Shown one piece after another: positions 23,886-55,719 of a DNA stretch of 64,000 nt. A model generated the notes under the pieces. The model was not told where the DNA came from. It saw nothing but the letters and a program-made list of their open reading frames with translations, and searched no databases. The stretch covers positions 3,136,001 to 3,200,000 of the forward strand of contig OY970192.1 in the NCBI GenBank assembly GCA_963708135.1. Reading direction: 5' to 3'. Numbering within the stretch: the first letter of the stretch is position 1; each line of letters starts with the position of its first letter. Origin of the DNA: an uncultured Gemmatimonadales bacterium. Lineage in GTDB: Bacteria; Gemmatimonadota; Gemmatimonadetes; Longimicrobiales; RSA9. Both the position numbers and the translations under genes were made by a program.

Positions 23886-26132
23886 TTGTTTCGGCTCAAG
23901 CTCTTCGGCAGCGCCACCATCGAGGGCCCCGACGGCCCGCTGAGTGGCCGGCCCGTGCAGCGGCGGCGGCTCGCGCTGCTGGCGCTCCTCGGCCTGGCCC
24001 GCCAGCGCGGGCTCACGCGCGACAAGCTGATCGGCTATCTCTGGCCGGATGCCGACCCGGAGCGGGCTCGCCGTCTGCTCTCGGACTCGGTCTACCGGAT
24101 CAACCAGGCGGTGGGCGGCGAGGCCATCGTCGCCTTCGGGGACGACCTCCGGCTCGATCCCGAGCGGCTGCCCAGCGATGCATGGGAGTTCCTCGAGGCG
24201 CTCGAGCGAGGCGAGTGGCGGCGCGTCACCGAGGTCTACGTGGCGCCGTTCCTGGACGGCTTCTTCCTGACCGGCGCGGACGAGCTCGAGCGGTGGGTGG
24301 ACGCGCAGCGCGAGCGGCTGGCGCGCGAGCGCGGGCGCGCGCTCGAGGCGCTCGCGGAGGCGGCCGAGCGCGACCGCGACACTGGCGAGGCCGTCCGCTG
24401 GTGGCGCATGCTGGCGGCTCAGGATCCCTACAGCTCGCGGGTGGCGCTGCGACTGATGCGGGCGCTGGATGCGGACGGCGATGCGGCGGCGGCGCTCCGG
24501 CACGCGCGCGTGCATTCGCTCATGCTGAAGGAGGAGCTCGGCCTCGAGCCGGATGCCGAGCTGCTGGCTTTCGTCGAGGCGCTGCGGGCCGCGCCGCGGG
24601 CGGGCGTGCCGGCCGGCGACGAGGCCCGCGCCGCCCGCGCGGATGCCGCCGCACTCGCCGGGACGCCGCCGGTGCGGCCCGCCTCAGCCTCCGCCGCCGC
24701 GCCGATGGCCGTGCCCACCGGCGCAGATTCCCCCTCGCCCAGGCCACCGGCCGGCCCCGCCGGGCACACGGTTGCCGTGCTGCCGTTCGTGAACCTGAGC
24801 GCGGATCCGGAGAACGAGTACTTCGCCGACGGGATCACGGAAGATGTGATCGCCCACCTGTCGAGGATCGGCGCGCTGAGCGTGATCTCGCGCGCCTCGA
24901 GCATGCGCTTCAAGGACCGGGAGCAGAGCCCCCGCGAGATCGGGGCGGCGCTCGGGGCGGCCACCCTCCTGGCCGGGAGCGTGCGGCGCGCCGGGGACCG
25001 GGTGCGCATCGTCGCCCAGCTCGTGGATGCGGAGACCGGCCGCTGCCTCTGGGCGGAGACCTACGACCGGCGGCTCACCGATGTGTTCGCGATCCAGACG
25101 GACGTGGCGCTCCGGATCGCCGAGACCCTGCGCGCGCAGCTTTCGGCCGACGAGCGGGCGCGGATCCGGAAGGAGCCGACGCGCGACCTGCAGGCCTACC
25201 AGCTCTACCTCCAGGGCCGGATCTGCTTCGTCCACTTCACCGAAGAAGGACTGCGCGGGGGGATCGACTACTTCGAGCGGGCCATCGAGCGGGACCCGGG
25301 CTATGGCCCGGCCTACGTCGGGATTGCGATGGCGTACGCCGAGCTGGGGGAGACCGGGATGCTGGAGCCGGGCGAGGCATACCGGCGGGCCAGCGAGGCG
25401 GCCGCGAAGGGCCTCGCCCTCGACGATGGGCTGGCCGAGGCGCACTGCGTTCTCGGCCAGCTCAAGGTCGTGTCGGCCTTCGACTGGCCGGGCGCCGAGC
25501 GCGAGTTCCGGCGCGCCCTCGAGCTGAGCCCCAGCAGCGCCGATACGTGGGACCTCTACGGGCGTATGGCCTCATCCCTCGGCCGGCACGAGGAGGCCGT
25601 CGCGATGGAGAGTCGAGCGCAGGAGCTCGACCCGCTGGCGCACCGGGCGGACTTCGCCACCGCCCTGATCCGCGCCGGCCGCTACGAGGAAGCGCTCGAG
25701 GCGGCCCGGCGCACCATCGAGCTCGACCCCCGCTACGACCGGGGGCACGCCACCCTCGGCTGGGCCTACCTGAAGAACGGGCTGCCGGAAGAAGGCCTGG
25801 CGGAGCTGGAGAGGGCGGTCGCGCTGTCGCCGGAGAATGCCGCCTGGCTCGCGCAGCTCGGGCAGGCGTACGGCATGGTGGGGAGGACCGAGCAGGCGCG
25901 CGAGGCCCTCGGCCGGCTGGAGGCGATGGCCCGCGAGCGCTACGTCTCGCCGTACCACATGGCCTACATCTACACGGGCCTCGGCGAGGCGGATCGCGCC
26001 GTCGAAGCACTCGAGCGCGCCTACGAGGAGCGGGCCGGTGGGGTCTACGGCATCAAGGGCTCGTTCCTCTTCACGACCCTCCACTCCCACCCCGGCTTCC
26101 AGGCCCTGCTCCGGCGCATGAACCTGGCCTGA
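23886..26132 (+). CDS. BTAD/SARP-type transcriptional regulator with TolB-N-like and TPR domains
   Basis: TTG start (MFRLKLFG); LALLALL, LTRDKLIGYLWPD, DPYS, VAVLPFVNLS..EYFADGITED, WAETYDR, TPR repeats. Confidence 0.9.
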   Translation: MFRLKLFGSATIEGPDGPLSGRPVQRRRLALLALLGLARQRGLTRDKLIGYLWPDADPERARRLLSDSVYRINQAVGGEAIVAFGDDLRLDPERLPSDAWEFLEALERGEWRRVTEVYVAPFLDGFFLTGADELERWVDAQRERLARERGRALEALAEAAERDRDTGEAVRWWRMLAAQDPYSSRVALRLMRALDADGDAAAALRHARVHSLMLKEELGLEPDAELLAFVEALRAAPRAGVPAGDEARAARADAAALAGTPPVRPASASAAAPMAVPTGADSPSPRPPAGPAGHTVAVLPFVNLSADPENEYFADGITEDVIAHLSRIGALSVISRASSMRFKDREQSPREIGAALGAATLLAGSVRRAGDRVRIVAQLVDAETGRCLWAETYDRRLTDVFAIQTDVALRIAETLRAQLSADERARIRKEPTRDLQAYQLYLQGRICFVHFTEEGLRGGIDYFERAIERDPGYGPAYVGIAMAYAELGETGMLEPGEAYRRASEAAAKGLALDDGLAEAHCVLGQLKVVSAFDWPGAEREFRRALELSPSSADTWDLYGRMASSLGRHEEAVAMESRAQELDPLAHRADFATALIRAGRYEEALEAARRTIELDPRYDRGHATLGWAYLKNGLPEEGLAELERAVALSPENAAWLAQLGQAYGMVGRTEQAREALGRLEAMARERYVSPYHMAYIYTGLGEADRAVEALERAYEERAGGVYGIKGSFLFTTLHSHPGFQALLRRMNLA

Positions 26133-26147
26133 GGGCTGTCCGGCTGC

Positions 26148-26289
26148 CTCGCGGCGCGATAAGGATCGCGCAATGGGCGGGCGCCGAATCGCACCCACCC
26201 TCGCGGCGCGATAAAGATCGCGCAATGGGCGGGCGCCGAACCGCACGCACCCACGCGGCGCGATAAAGATCGCGCAATGGGCGGGCGCC
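26148..26289. repeat. Array A: ~3 x 52-bp tandem repeat with a GCGCGAT-N4-ATCGCGC hairpin
   Basis: Units start at 26148, 26200, 26252: ctcgcggcgcgataa(g/a)gatcgcgcaatgggcgggcgccgaa... Confidence 0.95.
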
Positions 26290-26495
26290 ACGCCGTCCAG
26301 ATCCGGAATCATCTCGGAAACCGGGCAAGATCGCGGGCGCGGCGTCGCCGAGAGGCGGCGGGTGCGCCTTTCTTCTCGAATCCCGATCAAGAAGGCGGTC
26401 GCGATCCTCGCGGCGAGGTCCGCTCGCCGATCCTGCTCGCCGCCCGCCGCGCGGATCGGCTGTCCGTCGCGCCCGCGCGGGCGAACCCGCGACGG
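26290..26495. repeat. ~200-bp segment, copy 1 of a long direct repeat flanking the DUF559 gene
   Basis: Near-identical to 27857-28059. Confidence 0.95.
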
Positions 26496-26549
26496 CGGCC
26501 CGATCGGAGGTTCATCCCGCGGTGCCGGCGGCCGGGCCTGACGGGCGGC

Positions 26550-27494
26550 CTATGCCCGATGTGCGCGGTGCCGGGGGGCGGCTGCCTTGCGCGCCCCCGC
26601 CAGGGCGAGAATCTGGCCGATCTCGACGGCCACGGCGGTGGGCTCTCGCGTGAGCCGTCGCCAGCTCACGCGGATGACCTCGATGCCGCGGGCGCGCAGC
26701 CACGCGTCCTTGCGGCGGTCGCCCTCGAACCGGGCCCGGGACGAATGGTGCTGCCAGCCGTCGATCTCGATAGCGACCCCCTCCCGGGGCCATAGGCCGT
26801 CCACCTCGTAGGGCCCGATCGCCACGTTGAGGTGCGGGCGCGCCAGGTGGCCGACGCGCACGAGGTCCTGGAGACGCTCCTCGGCTCCGGAGCGCGTGAA
26901 CGCCGGGCCGTCCAGATCACCGAGAACGTCCCGGAGCGCCGCCATGCCCGGGCGCCCCCGGTATCGCGCCGGCAGGCGGGCGAGCTCGTCGCTCGTGATC
27001 AGTTTCTGCCGCTCCGCGACGGCCACGCTCTGCTCGATCTCGCGTCGCCCGAGGAGAGCCGCGATGTCCACCAGCGTGCGGCCGGGGGACGTGACCGGAA
27101 TGCCTTCGGCGACGGCGCGCTCGTCCTCCGCCAGCGCCTTCACGTGGTGCAGCCGGATCCCGGCGCGGCCCGCGTGCGCGCTTCGGAAGACGCTGACATC
27201 GAGGGGCCCCGGGCGTTCGGGGCGCGGTCGCACGCCCAGCAACACCGCGCCGGAGAGGTGGCTGAGCAGCGCCCCCGTGCCGCCCGCCAGGACGGCCGCC
27301 ATCTCGGCCGCATGAGGCGCCTCGAACGGTCCAATGAGGTAGACCCCGCTGTGAAGCGGCCGGAATCGGCGGGACTGCATCCGACGACCGATCGCCGCGG
27401 AGGAGAGGCCTGCCCGGAGGAGCTGCGCCCGGCTCACCACGCCGTGCTGCGAGGCGGCCAGCGCCATGACGCGCTCTTCGGTCTCGATATCCAT
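26550..27494 (-). CDS. AbiEi-family N-terminal wHTH + DUF559 (Vsr-like endonuclease) protein, copy 1
   Basis: QHGVVSRAQL, LHSGVY, LSHLSG, IPVTSPGRTLVD, TRSGAE, YEVDGLW, IEIDGWQHH, DRRKD. Confidence 0.9.
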   Translation of the reverse strand: MDIETEERVMALAASQHGVVSRAQLLRAGLSSAAIGRRMQSRRFRPLHSGVYLIGPFEAPHAAEMAAVLAGGTGALLSHLSGAVLLGVRPRPERPGPLDVSVFRSAHAGRAGIRLHHVKALAEDERAVAEGIPVTSPGRTLVDIAALLGRREIEQSVAVAERQKLITSDELARLPARYRGRPGMAALRDVLGDLDGPAFTRSGAEERLQDLVRVGHLARPHLNVAIGPYEVDGLWPREGVAIEIDGWQHHSSRARFEGDRRKDAWLRARGIEVIRVSWRRLTREPTAVAVEIGQILALAGARKAAAPRHRAHRA

Positions 27495-27656
27495 GGCTCA
27501 CACCCGCAGGGTTGCCCGGTGGCTCGGACCGCCCGCACCAGCCCGGCGCGATGTGCGACTGGGTCCGGTGCGGCCGGTGGGGCCCATGATCGCCCGGAAC
27601 GCGGGGCAACCCCATGGCAGGATGCGCCGCGGACCCGCCGGCCGGCCACGAAGCCA

Positions 27657-27856
27657 CTCGCGGCGCGATAAGGATCGCGCAACGGACGGGCGCCACGCCG
27701 CAGGCACCCACTCGCGGCCCGATAGGGATCGCGCAACGGACGGGCGCCACGCCGCAGGCACCCACTCGCGGCCCGATAAGGATCGCGCAACGGACGGGCG
27801 CCACGCCGCAGGCACCCACTCGCGGCCCGATAAGGATCGCGCAACGGACGGGCGCC
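27657..27856. repeat. Array B: ~4 x 54-bp tandem repeat, same family and orientation as array A
   Basis: Units start at 27657, 27711, 27765, 27819: ctcgcggc(g/c)cgataaggatcgcgcaacggacgggcgccacgccgcaggcaccca. Confidence 0.95.
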
Positions 27857-28059
27857 ACGCCGTCCAGATCCCGGATCATCTCGGAAACCGGGCAAGATCG
27901 CGGGCGCGGCGTCGCCGAGAGGCGGCGGATGCGCCTTTCTTCTCGAATCCCGATCAAGAAGGCGGTTGCGATCCTCGCGGCGAGGTCCGCTCGCCGATCC
28001 TGCTCGCCCGCCGCGCGGATCGGCCGTCCCTCGCGCCGCCGCGGGCGAACCCGCGACGG
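27857..28059. repeat. ~200-bp segment, copy 2 of the long direct repeat
   Basis: acgccgtccagatcc...gcgaacccgcgacgg, matches 26290-26495. Confidence 0.95.
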
Positions 28060-28334
28060 GGCAGCGGTCCGGAGCCAGGCGCCAGGTCCTTCCGGCGGCG
28101 AAGGCGCTCCGGCCTGTAGGTCGCCCCCCCGGGCTGGCGGCGCGGGCCGGCCGACCGTAGAACTCCTGCGGAAGCCACCGCGCCGATCCGGTCCGCACCC
28201 CCTCCGAACAGGAGACCGGCATGCTCGTGAGGCACGGGGCGTGGTGGGGCTCGGTTGGGGGGGCGCGCCCGCGCGGCCTGGCGGCGAACGGCGGACGAGC
28301 GCACGACACCTGCGACCCCGGAGAGGAGACCGGC

Positions 28335-31256
28335 ATGATCGTGACGGCGGCGAGGCGAATCGGCGGGACGGCGCGGAGCCTCGGCGCGGTCCTCGTCGCC
28401 GGCGCCCTCCTCGCCGCTCCCCGCCCCGCCGTCGCGCAGCGGCCGGATTCGGTCCGCCACCGCCTCGAGGCCGCGCGGCGGCCGCCGCCCTCCGCAGCCT
28501 ACCGCGACGCGCACCTCCCCATCGCCACACGCGTGCGCGACCTCCTCGGGCGCATGACGCTGGAGGAGAAGTTCTGGCAGCTGTTCATGACCCCCGGCGA
28601 GCTGGACGACCCGGCGCACGACTACGGCCACGGCGTCTTCGGCCTGCAGATCCCGGCCGTGCGAAAGCCGGCGGCGGGTGCACCGCGGCAGGACCTTTCG
28701 GACCCGGTGCGCGCCGGCGATCGCGCCGCTAGCCGCGGCACTGCCGAGACGCGACGCACAGCCGAGGCGCCCGTCACGGCCGAAGCCCGCGGCGCGGCCG
28801 AAGCCCGCGGCACGACCCCGCCTGGCTCCGGGACCGCCGCCGCCAGCCTCGCCCGCGCCGACGCCGCGCGGATCGACAGCATCCAGCGTCATTTCGTCGA
28901 GCGGACCCGGCTCGGCGTCCCGATCATCCCCTTCAATGAGGCCGTGCACGGGCTGGTGCGCCCCGGCGCCACGGCGTTCCCGCAGGCCATCGCGCTGGCG
29001 GCCACGTGGGACACGGCGCTGGTCGCGCGGGTGGCGGGCGCCATCGCGCGCGAGACGCGCAGCCGCGGGATCCGGCAGGTGCTCTCGCCCGTGCTGAACA
29101 TCGCTAGCGACGTGCGCTGGGGGCGCGTGGAGGAGACGTACGGCGAGGATCCCGTCCTGGCCTCGGCGATGGCGCGGGCGTTCGTGGGCTCGTTCGAGCG
29201 CGCGGGCGTCGCGACGACGGCCAAGCACTTCGTCGCCAACGTGGGCGAGGGCGGGCGCGACAGCTACCCGGTGGACTACGACCGCCGCGTCCTCGAGGAG
29301 CGTTTCTTCCCGCCGTTCCGGGCCGCGCTGGTGGACGCCCACGCCAGCGCGGTCATGAGCGCCTACAACTCCGTGGGCGGCGTGCCGGCCACGCAGAACC
29401 GTGCCCTGCTCACGGGCGTGCTGCGCGCGGAGTGGGGCTTCCGCGGCATCGTGATCTCGGACGCGGCGGCCACCGCGGGGCCGACGGTGCTGCAGCACAC
29501 GGAGGCGAGCACGGCCACGTCGGCGCGGGACGCGCTCGAGGCCGGCCTGGACGTGATCTTCCAGTCGTCGTATCCGCAGCACCGCCCCTATCTGGCCGCA
29601 TTCCGACGCGGCCTGGTCCCGGACAGCGTGATCGACCGCGCCGTCGCGCGCGTGCTGCGCCTGAAGTTCCGGCTCGGCCTCTTCGAGCGCCCGTACGTGG
29701 ACCCCGACAGCGCCGCCTACTGGAACGGCCGCCCGGAGCACCGCGCGCTCGCCCTCGAGGCGGCGCGCGAGTCCATCGTGCTGCTGCGCAACGAGAACGG
29801 CACACTGCCACTCTCGCCCGCCACGCGCGCGCTGGCCGTGATCGGCACGGATGCCGTCGAGGCACGGCTCGGCGGCTACAGCGGTCCGGGCGTCCAGCCG
29901 GTCTCCATCCTCGACGCCCTCCGGCAGAAGCTCGGCCCCGCCACGGAGGTGCGGTACGCGCCCGGCCCCGGCCGCGAGAGTCCGGAGTACGTGGCCATCC
30001 CGGCGGCGCGGCTCACGTCCGCCGGTTCCGCCGACTCCACCGCCAGCGTGGACCGGCAGCCGCAAAGGGGCCTTCGGGGCGAGTACTTCGACAACCCGCG
30101 GCTCGAGGGCTCGCCGAAGCTCGTCCGGGCGGACAGCCAGATTGCCTTCCAGTGGACCCTCGCCTCGCCGGGCCCGGGCATCCCGCACGGCTGGTACTCC
30201 GTGCGCTGGACCGGCCGGGTCACGGGCCCGCCCGGCGGCGAGGTGCGGCGCATCGGCGTCGAGGGGAACGACGGCTGGCGGCTGTACCTGGATGGCCGGC
30301 TGCTGATCGACGACTGGCGCCCGCGCTCGTACGGGGCGCACCTGGCCGATGTGGCGCTCGCGCCCGGGAGCACGCACGACCTGCGGCTCGAGTACCACCA
30401 GGCGACGGGGCGCGCGCGCGTCCGTCTGGTATGGGACGCCGGCGTGGCGCACGCCTGGCCCGCGGCCATCGACAGCGCCGCCGCCCTGGCCCGGCGGAGC
30501 GGTGCCGCCGTCGTCGTGGCGGGCATCGAGGAGGGCGAGTTCCGGGACCGCGCCTCCCTCGCCCTGCCGGGCCACCAGGAGGAGCTGATCGAGCGCGTAG
30601 CCGCGACAGGCACGCCGACCATCGTCGTGCTGATCGGCGGCAGCGCCATCACCATGTCGGGCTGGCTCGAGCGCGTGGGCGCCGTCCTCGACGCGTGGTA
30701 CCCGGGGGAGCAGGGCGGCCGCGCCGTCGCCGACATCCTCTTCGGCGACGGCGACCCCGGCGGCCGGCTGCCCATCACCTTCCCCGTGGCCGAGGGCCAG
30801 CTTCCGCTCTACTACGACCACGAGCCGACGGGCCGCGGCGACGACTACGTGGACCTCACGGGCGAGCCGCTGTTCCCGTTCGGCTTCGGGCTGAGCTACG
30901 CGACGTTCGCGTTCTCGGACCTCGCCATCACGCCGGACTCGGTCGCGCCCGACGGCACCGCGGTCGTGCGCTGCGTCGTCCGCAACACGGGCACCCGCGC
31001 CGGCGACGAGGTGGTGCAGCTCTACGTGCACCAGGAGCTGGCATCGGTCGCCCGGCCGGTGCTGCAGCTCGAGGGCTTCCGCCGCGTGCACCTGGCGCCG
31101 GGCGAGGCGCGCGAGGTCCGGTTCACCCTGTCGCGGGAGCAGCTCCGGCTGCTCGCGCGGGACGGGCGCTGGGTCGTCGAGCCGGGCAGCTTCCGGGTGA
31201 TGGTCGGCGCCTCGTCGAAGGACATCCGCCTGCGCGGGGAGCTCCGCGTGCGCTGA
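28335..31256 (+). CDS. GH3 beta-glucosidase/xylosidase with PA14 and Fn3-like domains
   Basis: RMTLEEK, EAVHG, FPQAIALAATWD, WGRVEETYGEDP, KHF, VMSAYN, VISD, PA14 insert, PFGFGLSY, GDEVVQLY; alternative in-frame start at 28221. Confidence 0.95.
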   Translation: MIVTAARRIGGTARSLGAVLVAGALLAAPRPAVAQRPDSVRHRLEAARRPPPSAAYRDAHLPIATRVRDLLGRMTLEEKFWQLFMTPGELDDPAHDYGHGVFGLQIPAVRKPAAGAPRQDLSDPVRAGDRAASRGTAETRRTAEAPVTAEARGAAEARGTTPPGSGTAAASLARADAARIDSIQRHFVERTRLGVPIIPFNEAVHGLVRPGATAFPQAIALAATWDTALVARVAGAIARETRSRGIRQVLSPVLNIASDVRWGRVEETYGEDPVLASAMARAFVGSFERAGVATTAKHFVANVGEGGRDSYPVDYDRRVLEERFFPPFRAALVDAHASAVMSAYNSVGGVPATQNRALLTGVLRAEWGFRGIVISDAAATAGPTVLQHTEASTATSARDALEAGLDVIFQSSYPQHRPYLAAFRRGLVPDSVIDRAVARVLRLKFRLGLFERPYVDPDSAAYWNGRPEHRALALEAARESIVLLRNENGTLPLSPATRALAVIGTDAVEARLGGYSGPGVQPVSILDALRQKLGPATEVRYAPGPGRESPEYVAIPAARLTSAGSADSTASVDRQPQRGLRGEYFDNPRLEGSPKLVRADSQIAFQWTLASPGPGIPHGWYSVRWTGRVTGPPGGEVRRIGVEGNDGWRLYLDGRLLIDDWRPRSYGAHLADVALAPGSTHDLRLEYHQATGRARVRLVWDAGVAHAWPAAIDSAAALARRSGAAVVVAGIEEGEFRDRASLALPGHQEELIERVAATGTPTIVVLIGGSAITMSGWLERVGAVLDAWYPGEQGGRAVADILFGDGDPGGRLPITFPVAEGQLPLYYDHEPTGRGDDYVDLTGEPLFPFGFGLSYATFAFSDLAITPDSVAPDGTAVVRCVVRNTGTRAGDEVVQLYVHQELASVARPVLQLEGFRRVHLAPGEAREVRFTLSREQLRLLARDGRWVVEPGSFRVMVGASSKDIRLRGELRVR

Positions 31257-49256: not shown

Positions 49257-55719
<6,463 letters not shown>

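What the first reader, a model, noticed from the sequence alone, without database searches (positions are those of the whole stretch)
26148..28059. DUF559 nuclease gene enclosed by two direct-repeat 'leader + tandem array' modules
Seen: read in the gene's (-) direction, the order is [~200-bp segment][4 x 54-bp hairpin repeats]-AbiEi/DUF559 gene-[same ~200-bp segment][3 x 52-bp repeats]. The two 200-bp copies are nearly identical, while the repeat units have diverged between the arrays but are similar within each. The cassette sits between unrelated genes (BTAD regulator, GH3), with no transposase or integrase. Known: DUF559 has a Vsr-like endonuclease fold; RAYT-REP and type III TA (toxIN) both pair a nuclease with flanking repeats. 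Inference: a candidate undescribed element in which the nuclease mobilises or processes its cognate repeats, or the arrays make small structured RNAs (antitoxin- or guide-like). The direct repeats would also allow excision as a ~1.57-kb circle.
Basis: partly seen in the sequence, partly recalled or inferred. Interest (0 to 1): 0.86.

Follow-up and report, generated by a model that had tools for sequence, protein, structure and literature searches.

The report
Nuclease gene hemmed by repeat arrays
A gene for a DNA-binding nuclease sits between two copies of a small repeat element that is scattered around the genome, and relatives of this gene are almost always surrounded by short tandem repeats, so enzyme and repeats probably form one undescribed selfish unit.

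Summary
In detail: a 3x52-bp array plus ~200-bp segment, the AbiEi_4/DUF559 gene, then a 4x54-bp array plus the same segment (95% alike).

- **The flanking module.** "One unit + segment" is a ~190-240-bp dispersed element with inverted ends. It has 24 copies in this genome, 22 of them far from any such gene, and none by its signature in ~185,000 other species.
- **Gene and arrays.** All 7 paralogs here lie beside tandem arrays. For strong arrays it is 6/7, against 3.4% of random positions. In 7 sister genomes it is 28/34 homologs against 18.5% of controls. Arrays cover 15-26% of the first 750 bp on both sides. At 3 of 3 resolvable syntenic sites, gene and arrays are present or absent together.
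- **Specificity.** Transposases and other gene families do not show this.
- **A second case.** Another paralog is bracketed by two copies of a different dispersed element (19 copies).
- **The protein.** It is an AbiEi-like DNA binder fused to a Vsr/homing-endonuclease-like nuclease with conserved catalytic residues.

My best reading (0.45) is a nuclease-repeat partnership, REP/RAYT-like in logic but with an unrelated enzyme. Against it, the flanking repeats in sister genera are mostly unique and unrelated on the two sides.

This scan has noted similar loci before on other DNA (8 notes). I found no paper describing it.

The parts
26147..26302 (+). Tandem array of 3 units of 52 bp. Each unit carries the palindrome GCGCGAT-N4-ATCGCGC. 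The third unit is the left end of element copy W1.
   Evidence: TRF period 52 x 2.8, 95% matches; units shown in register.
26254..26495 (+). Copy W1 of dispersed element family 1 (last unit plus the '200-bp segment'). It lies 55 bp beyond the 3' end of the gene.
   Evidence: nhmmer E = 1.4e-60; alignments of 8, 24 and 23 copies.
26550..27494 (-). Gene for a 314-aa protein: an AbiEi-like winged-helix and middle domain fused to a C-terminal Vsr/DUF559 nuclease. E243, D245, H250 and D259 are invariant among 11 homologs.
   Evidence: Pfam; alignment A3; model with pLDDT 85; PDB matches by sequence and by fold.
27495..27653 (.). 159-bp spacer upstream of the gene, unique to this locus. No consensus promoter was found in it.
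   Evidence: No match elsewhere in the genome apart from repeats; promoter scan found 0 sites.
27654..27869 (+). Tandem array of 4 units of 54 bp, homologous to the 52-bp units including their spacer part. The last unit is the left end of element copy W2.
   Evidence: TRF period 54 x 3.9, 98% matches; units shown in register.
27821..28059 (+). Copy W2 of dispersed element family 1, in direct orientation to W1 and 95% identical to it. It is 82-88% identical to the six other close copies.
53628..54545 (+). Second instance in the same window: paralog P3189 (49% identical to the first gene), which lies between the two arrays listed next.
   Evidence: tblastn; Pfam six-frame hits; alignment.
53084..53533 (+). 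61-bp x 6.2 array upstream of P3189.
   Evidence: TRF score 637; units printed.
54762..55155 (-). 61-bp x 6.5 array downstream of P3189. It is partly homologous to the upstream array, in inverted orientation.
   Evidence: Flank-versus-flank BLAST, 67% over 334 bp, inverted; units printed.

Best explanation
**What it is.** The locus is one of seven copies of a self-contained cassette: a gene for a sequence-binding nuclease (AbiEi-like DNA-binding part plus Vsr/EDxHD-type endonuclease) embedded in repeat DNA.

**Shown**
- In this bacterial family the gene lies in intergenic DNA.
- It is hemmed in within about 750 bp on both sides by young tandem arrays.
- It is present or absent together with those arrays at syntenic sites.
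- At this locus the repeat DNA is built from a ~190-240-bp dispersed element with inverted ends (24 copies). The element's hairpin-bearing left end is amplified 3 and 4 times, and the whole module stands on both sides of the gene.

**Inferred mechanism.** The nuclease recognises and cuts or nicks structured repeat DNA next to its own gene. Repair of those breaks by slippage or template switching amplifies the repeats into arrays, can copy a module across the gene, and now and then seeds copies elsewhere. Enzyme and repeats therefore persist as a partnership. It is REP/RAYT-like in logic but run by an unrelated enzyme.
For: 1. **Gene-array association in this genome.** Arrays of TRF score >=400 and period >=10 lie within 1.2 kb of 6/7 paralogs, against 3.4% of random gene-sized windows. 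Only 58 such arrays exist genome-wide. Against the harshest null, 9-22% of long non-coding stretches carry such an array.
2. **Sister genomes.** Among 34 homologs in 7 genomes, 28/34 have an array of score >=100, against 199/1074 control positions in the same loci. Arrays on both sides: 14/34 against 1.6%. Score >=250: 15/34 against 4.0%.
3. **Profile over 41 loci.** Arrays cover 15-26% of bases at 0-750 bp on both sides and about 1% beyond 1.5 kb.
4. **Empty sites, 3 of 3 resolvable.**
   - 2.27-kb block against 417 bp.
   - 1.76 kb against 91 bp.
   - 2.38 kb against 189 and 198 bp in two congeners.
   - None of the empty sites has arrays.
5. **Specificity.**
   - This is the only multi-copy ORF family concentrated at arrays: 4/5 detected members against a 5.4% background.
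   - Transposase loci: 3/30 even within 2.4 kb.
6. **Two paralogs, two element families.** Each is bracketed by two direct copies of a different dispersed ~190-bp element: family 1 with 24 copies and family 2 with 19 copies. A third paralog has a dispersed non-coding repeat on one side.
7. **Amplified ends.** Of the 24 family-1 copies, W1 and W2 are the only two with an amplified left end (a third copy, e5084146, has an array overlapping its right end), and both stand beside the gene.
8. **Young arrays.** Two highly diverged paralogs in G065 (a single 161-bp match at 66% identity) carry the same 9-mer array, 96% alike. Its congener has none.
9. **Protein.**
   - The fold matches AbiEi antitoxin 6y8q and Rv2827c in the N-terminal part.
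   - It matches the I-Bth0305I catalytic domain, 3hrl and Vsr in the C-terminal part.
   - E243, D245, H250 and D259 are invariant.
Against: - In sister genera the two flanks are rarely related: 2/33 at E<=1e-6 against 1/520 controls. With a sensitive search, 3/33 lie above the controls' 95th percentile.
- In 4 of 4 relatives' cassettes tested, the flanking repeats are unique or nearly so in their genome.
- Array units range from 9 to 336 bp and share no motif, so no common recognition element is visible.
- The cassettes show no terminal inverted or direct repeats.
- Family 1 shows no target-site duplication.
- Most arrays in this genome (about 200 of 237) and 22 of 24 family-1 copies have no such gene nearby. 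Both element families are array-associated on their own: family 1 at 12/24 and family 2 at 10/19. Arrays therefore also arise without the nuclease in cis.
- There are no expression, binding or cleavage data.
Confidence: 0.45

Rival explanations
1. Free-standing homing-type selfish gene, with the repeats as bystanders. The nuclease cuts empty alleles and is copied in by recombination. The arrays are neutral scars or junk in the imported non-coding DNA. The two element copies arrived by local duplication or by independent insertion.
For: - The nuclease domain is homologous to the homing endonuclease I-Bth0305I. That family also includes free-standing genes (PMC3239194, passages read).
- Presence/absence at syntenic sites, with no transposon-like ends.
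- 29 of 122 match rows carry in-frame stops (my hand count of the table), and other copies are split. This pattern is expected for decaying selfish genes.
- Flanking repeats in relatives are not dispersed.
Against: - It does not explain why arrays sit on both sides of nearly every copy while transposases lack them.
- It does not explain why two paralogs are each bracketed by two copies of different dispersed elements.
- Copies within a genome are old (42-60% identical), so recent intragenomic homing is not seen.
Confidence: 0.25
2. Coincidence of 'junk'. Long, unconstrained intergenic spacers collect tandem arrays, MITE-like elements and dispensable genes independently.
For: - Both dispersed element families are array-associated without any nuclease gene nearby: 12/24 and 10/19.
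- Half of all arrays belong to unit families that recur at several loci (117/237).
Against: - The enrichment is family-specific and is absent for transposases.
- Empty sites are short spacers without arrays, so the spacer is long because of the cassette, not the reverse.
- Against long non-coding stretches the comparison is still 6/7 against 9-22%.
Confidence: 0.1
3. Operator arrays. The palindromic units are binding sites through which the AbiEi-like domain represses its own promoter, as AbiEi antitoxins do (this property is recalled, not from a call).
For: - Four palindrome-bearing units lie 160-370 bp upstream of the start codon.
- The N-terminal two-thirds of the protein has the AbiEi fold.
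Against: - The same units also lie downstream of the gene.
- Across 41 loci, arrays are as dense downstream as upstream.
- The units are unrelated between loci, and many are not palindromic.
- The element carrying the unit occurs at 22 loci without the gene.
Confidence: 0.08
4. RNA-based system. The arrays are transcribed into small structured RNAs: a type III (toxIN-like) antitoxin, or guides.
For: There is only the layout: repeats next to a nuclease gene, with hairpins in the units.
Against: - The nuclease fold is that of DNA endonucleases.
- Arrays lie on both sides in either orientation, with units of 9-336 bp.
- No Rfam match.
- Folding energy is no better than that of shuffled sequence (z = -0.9 and -0.4).
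- Covariation is weak.
Confidence: 0.04
5. Assembly artefact: the second module is a mis-joined duplicate.
For: No long read or contig spanning the locus was available.
Against: - The two modules differ at 5% of positions and in unit length (52 against 54 bp) and unit number.
- Contigs of a public DNA run match each module exactly.
- The same layout recurs at other paralogs.
Confidence: 0.02

Closest known systems
REP/REPIN elements with their RAYT gene (Bertels & Rainey 2011, PMC3116915, and PMC3337134: search listing and start of abstracts only; further details recalled)
   Same: - One gene is flanked by copies of a short, hairpin-bearing, extragenic repeat that is also scattered through the same genome.
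- Different paralogs go with different repeat families (here families 1 and 2).
- The repeats are non-autonomous.
   Different: - The enzyme is a Vsr/PD-(D/E)XK-type nuclease with an AbiEi-like DNA-binding part, not a HUH Y1 transposase.
- The flanking copies are direct, not inverted.
- The elements are ~190 bp and are tandemly amplified.
- In sister genera the flanking repeats are usually unique to the locus.
EDxHD (Vsr-like) homing endonucleases, prototype I-Bth0305I (PMC3239194, 12 passages read; PDB 3r3p)
   Same: - N-terminal DNA-binding region plus a C-terminal Vsr-like nuclease (3r3p: E = 1.5e-4 by sequence, TM 0.77 by fold).
- Conserved acidic and histidine residues.
- Free-standing members exist.
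- Presence/absence polymorphism.
   Different: - The N-terminal part is AbiEi-like, not NUMOD.
- The gene is not in an intron or intein.
- It is surrounded by tandem arrays.
- Homing and target cleavage have not been shown.
AbiEi antitoxin of type IV AbiE toxin-antitoxin systems (PDB 6y8q; Rv2827c, 1zel)
   Same: The fold of residues ~1-195 matches (Foldseek E about 1e-5), and the AbiEi_4 Pfam domain scores above its cut-off.
   Different: - There is no AbiEii toxin gene next to it.
- The protein carries its own nuclease domain.
MITEs (miniature inverted-repeat transposable elements), as a comparison for the flanking element
   Same: - Small (~190-240 bp), non-coding and multi-copy (24).
- 14-15-bp inverted termini.
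- Intergenic and lineage-specific.
   Different: - No target-site duplication was detected.
- No parent was found among the 7 IS families checked.
- The terminal motif is repeated internally at a ~62-nt period.
Type III toxin-antitoxin systems (toxIN); features recalled, not from a call
   Same: A tandem repeat array lies next to a nuclease gene.
   Different: - A DNA-nuclease fold rather than a ToxN-type RNase.
- Arrays on both sides.
- No fixed unit length or orientation.

Membership tests
Pfam AbiEi_4 + DUF559 architecture | Both domains score above the curated cut-offs in one polypeptide. | tested here: met
   AbiEi_4 scores 31.1 bits (cut-off 25) over residues 7-54. DUF559 scores 28.5 bits (cut-off 20.6) over residues 204-296.
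Vsr/EDxHD-type endonuclease | Vsr-like nuclease fold. | tested here: met
   - By profile: 3hrl E = 6.2e-6; 3r3p E = 1.5e-4.
- By Foldseek: 3r3p TMt 0.77, 3hrl TMt 0.80, 1cw0 TMt 0.48, on a model with pLDDT 85.
Vsr/EDxHD-type endonuclease | Conserved catalytic E, D, H and D residues. | tested here: met
   E243, D245, H250 and D259 are invariant in 11 sequences. Mapping them onto the published EDxHD motif is my own reading of PMC3239194, not a structural superposition.
Homing endonuclease gene | Presence/absence at otherwise conserved sites. | tested here: met
   3 clean cases among homologs in congeneric genomes. This could not be tested for the window's own copy.
Homing endonuclease gene | The enzyme cleaves the empty allele, and the gene is copied into the break. 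| not testable with these tools
   This needs biochemistry or genetic crosses.
Type IV TA system AbiE | An AbiEi gene paired with an adjacent AbiEii (nucleotidyltransferase) toxin gene. | tested here: not met
   The neighbours are a BTAD/TPR protein and a GH3 glycosidase. No other coding-like ORF lies in 26133-28220.
REP/REPIN-RAYT system | The partner enzyme is a HUH Y1 (RAYT) transposase. | tested here: not met
   The only gene in the cassette is AbiEi_4/DUF559.
REP/REPIN-RAYT system | The gene is flanked by its repeat, and the same repeat is dispersed in extragenic DNA. | tested here: met
   - Family 1 lies on both sides of the gene, with 22 further copies.
- Family 2 lies on both sides of P0741, with 17 further copies.
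- The orientation is direct, not inverted.
REP/REPIN-RAYT system | The association holds across related genomes. | tested here: not met
   Flanking repeats were not dispersed in 4 of 4 relatives' cassettes. The two flanks were alike in only 2/33 loci.
MITE (the flanking element) | Terminal inverted repeats. | tested here: met
   Consensus left end GCGAGCAAGATCGCG and right end CCCGATCTTGCTCGC, from the 23- and 24-copy alignments.
MITE (the flanking element) | Target-site duplication. | tested here: not met
   The longest word shared by the two flanks averages 3.8 nt, against 3.6 nt in mismatched controls. The element's boundaries are uncertain.
MITE (the flanking element) | A parent transposon with the same ends. 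| tested here: not met
   7 IS families have different ends. No partial profile hits point to longer elements.
Type III TA (toxIN-like) | A repeat array upstream of, and co-oriented with, a ToxN/AbiQ-type RNase gene. | tested here: not met
   The fold is that of a DNA nuclease. Arrays lie on both sides.
Known RNA family (Rfam) | A match to a curated covariance model. | tested here: not met
   No relevant match at E<=1 in 25500-28800.

The most novel reading that the evidence does not exclude
AbiEi-like/Vsr-like nucleases are the missing partner enzymes of a whole class of intergenic hairpin repeats and VNTR-like tandem arrays in high-GC bacteria. On this reading they create, amplify and spread these repeats by cutting structured DNA next to their own genes. 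That would make them a second, independently evolved REP/RAYT-type replicator system built on a repair-nuclease fold.
Probability: 0.3. Interest if true: 0.85.

Novelty: new variant of a known kind. Interest (0 to 1): 0.7.

Why it matters
- **An open question becomes testable.** The origin of intergenic tandem arrays and palindromic repeat families in bacteria is largely unexplained outside the REP/RAYT systems of proteobacteria. Here one widespread but uncharacterised gene family (DUF559 with an AbiEi-like domain) shows a strong, controlled and cross-genome association with such repeats. It also shows presence/absence polymorphism. This gives a concrete candidate enzyme and simple experiments: binding and cutting of its own flanking units, and array instability in a catalytic mutant.
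- **Annotation.** These genes are routinely labelled as antitoxins or 'DUF559' proteins.
- **Assembly.** Several copies in fragmented assemblies lie at contig ends.

Tried and rejected
- **Structured-RNA reading of the element.** Single-sequence folds were no better than shuffles (z = -0.9 and -0.4). RNAalifold gave only 8 pairs. Mapping each copy's own fold onto the alignment gave no shared helices. A column-pair scan gave weak covariation, confounded by GATC/CG palindromes. Rfam gave nothing relevant.
- **Public genome collection.** The protein pattern scan found no relative. The element signature found 0 matches.
- **13-mer terminal motif with 2 mismatches.** Not diagnostic: 572 hits outside known elements, against 276 in a reversed-genome control.
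- **Empty BTAD-GH3 site.** The genome is the only species of its genus held. GH3 orthologs (~70% identity) in G009 and G014 have no shared neighbours.
- **BTAD/TPR matches near two relatives' copies.** They cover only the TPR half, lie 3.5-6.7 kb away, and come from a multi-copy family.
- **Empty-site comparisons.** L083, L086, L097 and L098 were inconclusive: variable content, or flanks on different contigs.
- **61-bp unit of P3189.** Full matches at only 2 loci, so a clear 'one paralog, one dispersed repeat' rule is not shown there.
- **Other flank hits.** P1681's multi-locus flank hits are a coding gene family. P3378's 3' flank is low-complexity hexamers.
- **Target-site duplications and IS parents of family 1.** None found.
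- **Consensus promoters and terminators at the locus.** 0 found.
- **Sequencing runs.** No RNA holder is listed. The contigs of the one DNA holder are short (82-390 bp on the locus), bridge nothing and show no joints, so neither the long-range order nor circles could be checked.
- **Domain-wise divergence.** wHTH 0.45, middle 0.45, nuclease 0.51 mean identity. This gives no sign of faster change in the DNA-binding part.
- **First GH3 search.** It failed on a frame error and was repeated with corrected coordinates.
Full report
**1.

- TRF finds a 52-bp x 2.8 array at 26147-26289 and a 54-bp x 3.9 array at 27654-27862. Each array runs into a ~200-240-bp segment.
- The two segments are 95% alike over 194 nt and 93% over a further 55 nt. 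As one BLAST match they give 352 bp at 89.5%.
- Each unit carries the palindrome GCGCGAT-N4-ATCGCGC.
- Between the modules lies a 314-aa gene (26550-27494, minus strand). It has AbiEi_4 and DUF559 domains above the Pfam cut-offs.
- Its neighbours are a BTAD/TPR protein and a GH3 glycosidase.
- The window is part of a single 5.45-Mb contig with 72% G+C.

**2. The 'leader + unit' is a dispersed element**

- BLAST found six more copies of 'one unit + segment' elsewhere in the genome.
- A profile search raised this to 24 copies at E<1e-9 (two of them partial). Of these, 22 are away from the locus.
- The alignments show an element of ~190 bp (up to ~240 bp in the close subfamily):
  - Its ends are inverted: GCGAGCAAGATCGCG ... 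CCCGATCTTGCTCGC.
  - The terminal motif is repeated inside at a ~62-nt period.
  - There are about six GATC sites per copy.
- A two-motif signature hits 19 of the 24 copies and nothing else in the genome. It hits nothing in one genome each of ~185,000 other species.
- BLAST found no copy in 30 relatives. The family is therefore lineage-specific.
- I found no target-site duplication, no parent among 7 IS families and no convincing RNA structure. 'MITE-like' therefore describes its anatomy, not a shown mechanism.
- The 52/54-bp arrays are amplifications of this element's left, hairpin-bearing end. Of the 24 copies, W1 and W2 are the only two with an amplified left end (a third copy, e5084146, has an array overlapping its right end), and both stand beside the gene.
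- W1 and W2 are each other's closest relatives: 95% alike, against 82-88% to the other close copies.

**3. Elements and gene copies do not travel together, but both sit by arrays**

- The genome has exactly seven AbiEi_4+DUF559 genes, 42-60% identical to the window's. One of them is split.
- Apart from the window gene, the nearest family-1 copy lies 5 kb to 880 kb from each paralog.
- Family-1 copies are enriched for adjoining tandem arrays:
  - TRF score >=90 within 350 bp: 12/24, against 5.7-8.9% of control windows.
  - TRF score >=150: 10/24, against 3.4-6.4%.
- Unexpectedly, every paralog also lies beside arrays.

**4. The gene-array association is strong, specific and general**

In this genome, for arrays of period >=10 within 1.2 kb:

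| TRF score | Paralogs with an array | Random gene-sized windows | Such arrays genome-wide |
|---|---|---|---|
| >=100 | 7/7 | 10.4% | 237 |
| >=250 | 6/7 | 5.1% | 99 |
| >=400 | 6/7 | 3.4% | 58 |

- Against the harshest null, long non-coding stretches carry a score->=400 array in 9.1% of cases (stretches >=300 bp) to 22% (>=500 bp). That null is over-conservative, because arrays themselves lengthen the spacers.
- Among ORF families with paralogs, only this one is concentrated at arrays: 4 of 5 detected members, against a 5.4% background. Other families gave 3/44 to 4/22.
- Thirty transposase loci gave 3/30 at score >=400, even within 2.4 kb.
- Homologs occur in 36 of 121 genomes of the order: 28/40 in the window's own family, with up to 7 copies per genome. 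This tally includes one unpublished genome, G016. By my hand count, 29 of 122 match rows carry in-frame stops, and several copies lie at contig ends.
- Within the phylum, the subfamily is nearly confined to this family: f1 3/4, f2 2/24, all other families 1/172.

For 34 homologs in 7 near-complete genomes, using 20-kb loci with internal controls:

| Measure | Homologs | Controls |
|---|---|---|
| Array of score >=100 within 1.2 kb | 28/34 | 199/1074 (18.5%) |
| Arrays on both sides | 14/34 | 1.6% |
| Array of score >=250 | 15/34 | 4.0% |

- Oriented on the gene, arrays cover 15-26% of bases at 0-750 bp on both sides. Coverage falls to about 1% beyond 1.5 kb.

**5. Gene and arrays come and go together**

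In three syntenic comparisons between congeners, a block of gene plus arrays in one genome faces a short spacer in the other:

| Locus | Block (gene + arrays) | Corresponding empty site |
|---|---|---|
| L085 (G065) | 2.27 kb | 417 bp in G101 |
| L087 (G065) | 1.76 kb | 91 bp in G101 |
| L096 (G046) | 2.38 kb | 189 bp (G077) and 198 bp (G004) |

- No array was found in the spacer of any of the empty sites.
- Four further comparisons were inconclusive.
- The blocks have no inverted or direct terminal repeats.
- In L087 a 39-bp duplication includes the 3' end of the neighbouring gene, so local sequence was amplified there.
- In G065, two highly diverged paralogs (a single 161-bp match at 66% identity) carry the same 9-mer array, 96% alike. 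Its congener has none. The arrays are therefore young.

**6. How far the REP/RAYT-like reading goes**

- Eight earlier notes of this scan, on other genomes, describe DUF559/AbiEi-like genes bracketed by hairpin repeats that are also dispersed. They are unchecked leads, but they made me test each paralog's flanks against the genome.
- Paralog P0741 is bracketed by two direct copies (82% alike) of a second ~190-bp element, with 19 copies in all. That element has its own inverted ends and a central palindrome. It too is array-associated (10/19).
- P4909 and P3189 are bracketed by repeats that occur at a few other loci.
- P3378 has a dispersed non-coding repeat on one side.
- P1681 and the split P4895 have none.
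- In this genome, then, 4 of 7 copies are enclosed by related repeats, and two of those repeats are clearly dispersed families.
- In sister genera the picture is different:
  - The two flanks are alike in only 2/33 loci, against 1/520 controls. With a sensitive search, 3/33 lie above the controls' 95th percentile.
  - In 4 of 4 cassettes tested, the flanking repeats were unique or nearly so in their genome.
- Half of this genome's arrays (117/237) belong to unit families that recur at several loci.

**7. The protein**

- A model built from 11 homologs has pLDDT 85.
- Residues ~1-195 resemble the AbiEi antitoxin (6y8q) and Rv2827c (1zel).
- The C-terminal domain resembles the catalytic domain of the homing endonuclease I-Bth0305I (3r3p), 3hrl and Vsr, both by sequence and by fold.
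- E243, D245, H250 and D259 are invariant.
- I-Bth0305I likewise joins a DNA-binding N-terminus to a Vsr-like nuclease, and its family has free-standing members (PMC3239194, passages read).
- Vsr, DUF559, 3hrl and 3r3p are placed in one group of the PD-(D/E)XK superfamily (PMC3424549, one passage read).

**8. Reading**

*Shown*
- A nuclease-gene cassette is consistently wrapped in young tandem arrays.
- It is polymorphic in presence.
- At this locus the wrapping is built from a dispersed element.

*Inferred*
- The nuclease acts on structured repeat DNA next to its gene. Break repair then amplifies, duplicates and sometimes spreads that DNA.
- I put this at 0.45.
- The main rival (0.25) is a homing-type selfish gene whose repeats are bystanders.

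*Lesser rivals*
- Passive accumulation of junk (0.10).
- Operator arrays (0.08).
- RNA products (0.04).
- Assembly artefact (0.02).

**9. Novelty**

- My searches found no paper linking DUF559 or AbiEi_4 proteins to flanking or dispersed repeats:
  - 'DUF559' + 'tandem repeat': 3 papers, 2 of them listed; the listed ones are not on this topic by title or abstract.
  - 'DUF559' + 'AbiEi': 0 papers.
  - 'AbiEi_4': 4 papers, on toxin-antitoxin catalogues.
  - 'DUF559' alone: 25 papers, with the term in no title or abstract.
  - RAYT/REPIN papers: none of the 12 listed contains 'Vsr'.
- Subscription journals are not covered by these searches.
- The scan itself has met the pattern before on other DNA.
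- New here: a controlled, cross-genome measure of the array association, the empty sites, and the limits of the REP/RAYT analogy in this lineage.

Noticed in passing
window 53084-55155: A second AbiEi_4/DUF559 paralog (53628-54545, +) lies in the same window. It sits between a 61-bp x 6.2 array (53084-53533) and a 61-bp x 6.5 array (54762-55155). The two arrays are partly homologous in inverted orientation.
   Followed up: partly
window 28122-28344: The region just upstream of the GH3 gene holds an internal duplication. 28122-28170 matches 28266-28314 at 73%. 28204-28230 matches 28318-28344 at 89%, and that pair includes GGAGACCGGCATG. There are therefore two alternative ribosome-site/ATG starts 114 nt apart in the same frame.
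   Followed up: no
genome G000:C1, 19 loci, e.g. 741171-741490 and 742823-743030: A second dispersed ~190-bp element family (19 copies). Its inverted ends are CGGACCAAAC... and ...AAAGGTCCG, and it has a central palindrome GCGGACCAAAGTCCC/GGGACTTTGGTCCGC. 10 of the 19 copies lie beside tandem arrays, and one locus holds two copies in tandem (period 280).
   Followed up: partly
genome G000:C1, whole genome: The genome is unusually rich in tandem arrays: 237 merged arrays of TRF score >=100 and period >=10. Of these, 117 fall into 23 unit families that recur at several loci. One such family has ~230-bp units at 14 loci, in arrays of up to 3 kb.
   Followed up: partly
genome G000:C1:3066764-3085092, 3644009-3653563, 5132697-5140585: Stretches of 8-18 kb lack any ORF with coding-like GC3 by my caller. 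They are filled with long-period arrays (periods 183-439), and the last one also holds transposase genes. They may be giant repetitive genes or non-coding islands.
   Followed up: no
family-1 element, e.g. window 27821-28023: Each element copy holds about six GATC sites, where about 0.5 would be expected at this base composition (my estimate from the alignment).
   Followed up: no
L085 8615-9177 and L087 9006-9242 (genome G065): The 9-mer CGTCGCCCT forms arrays of 63 and 26 units just upstream of two highly diverged paralogs (a single 161-bp match at 66% identity). There are only two other short runs of it in that genome and none in the congener G101.
   Followed up: partly
genome G000:C1:489679-489849: An eighth DUF559 domain lies inside an open frame of 1896 aa, without an AbiEi_4 domain.
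   Followed up: no
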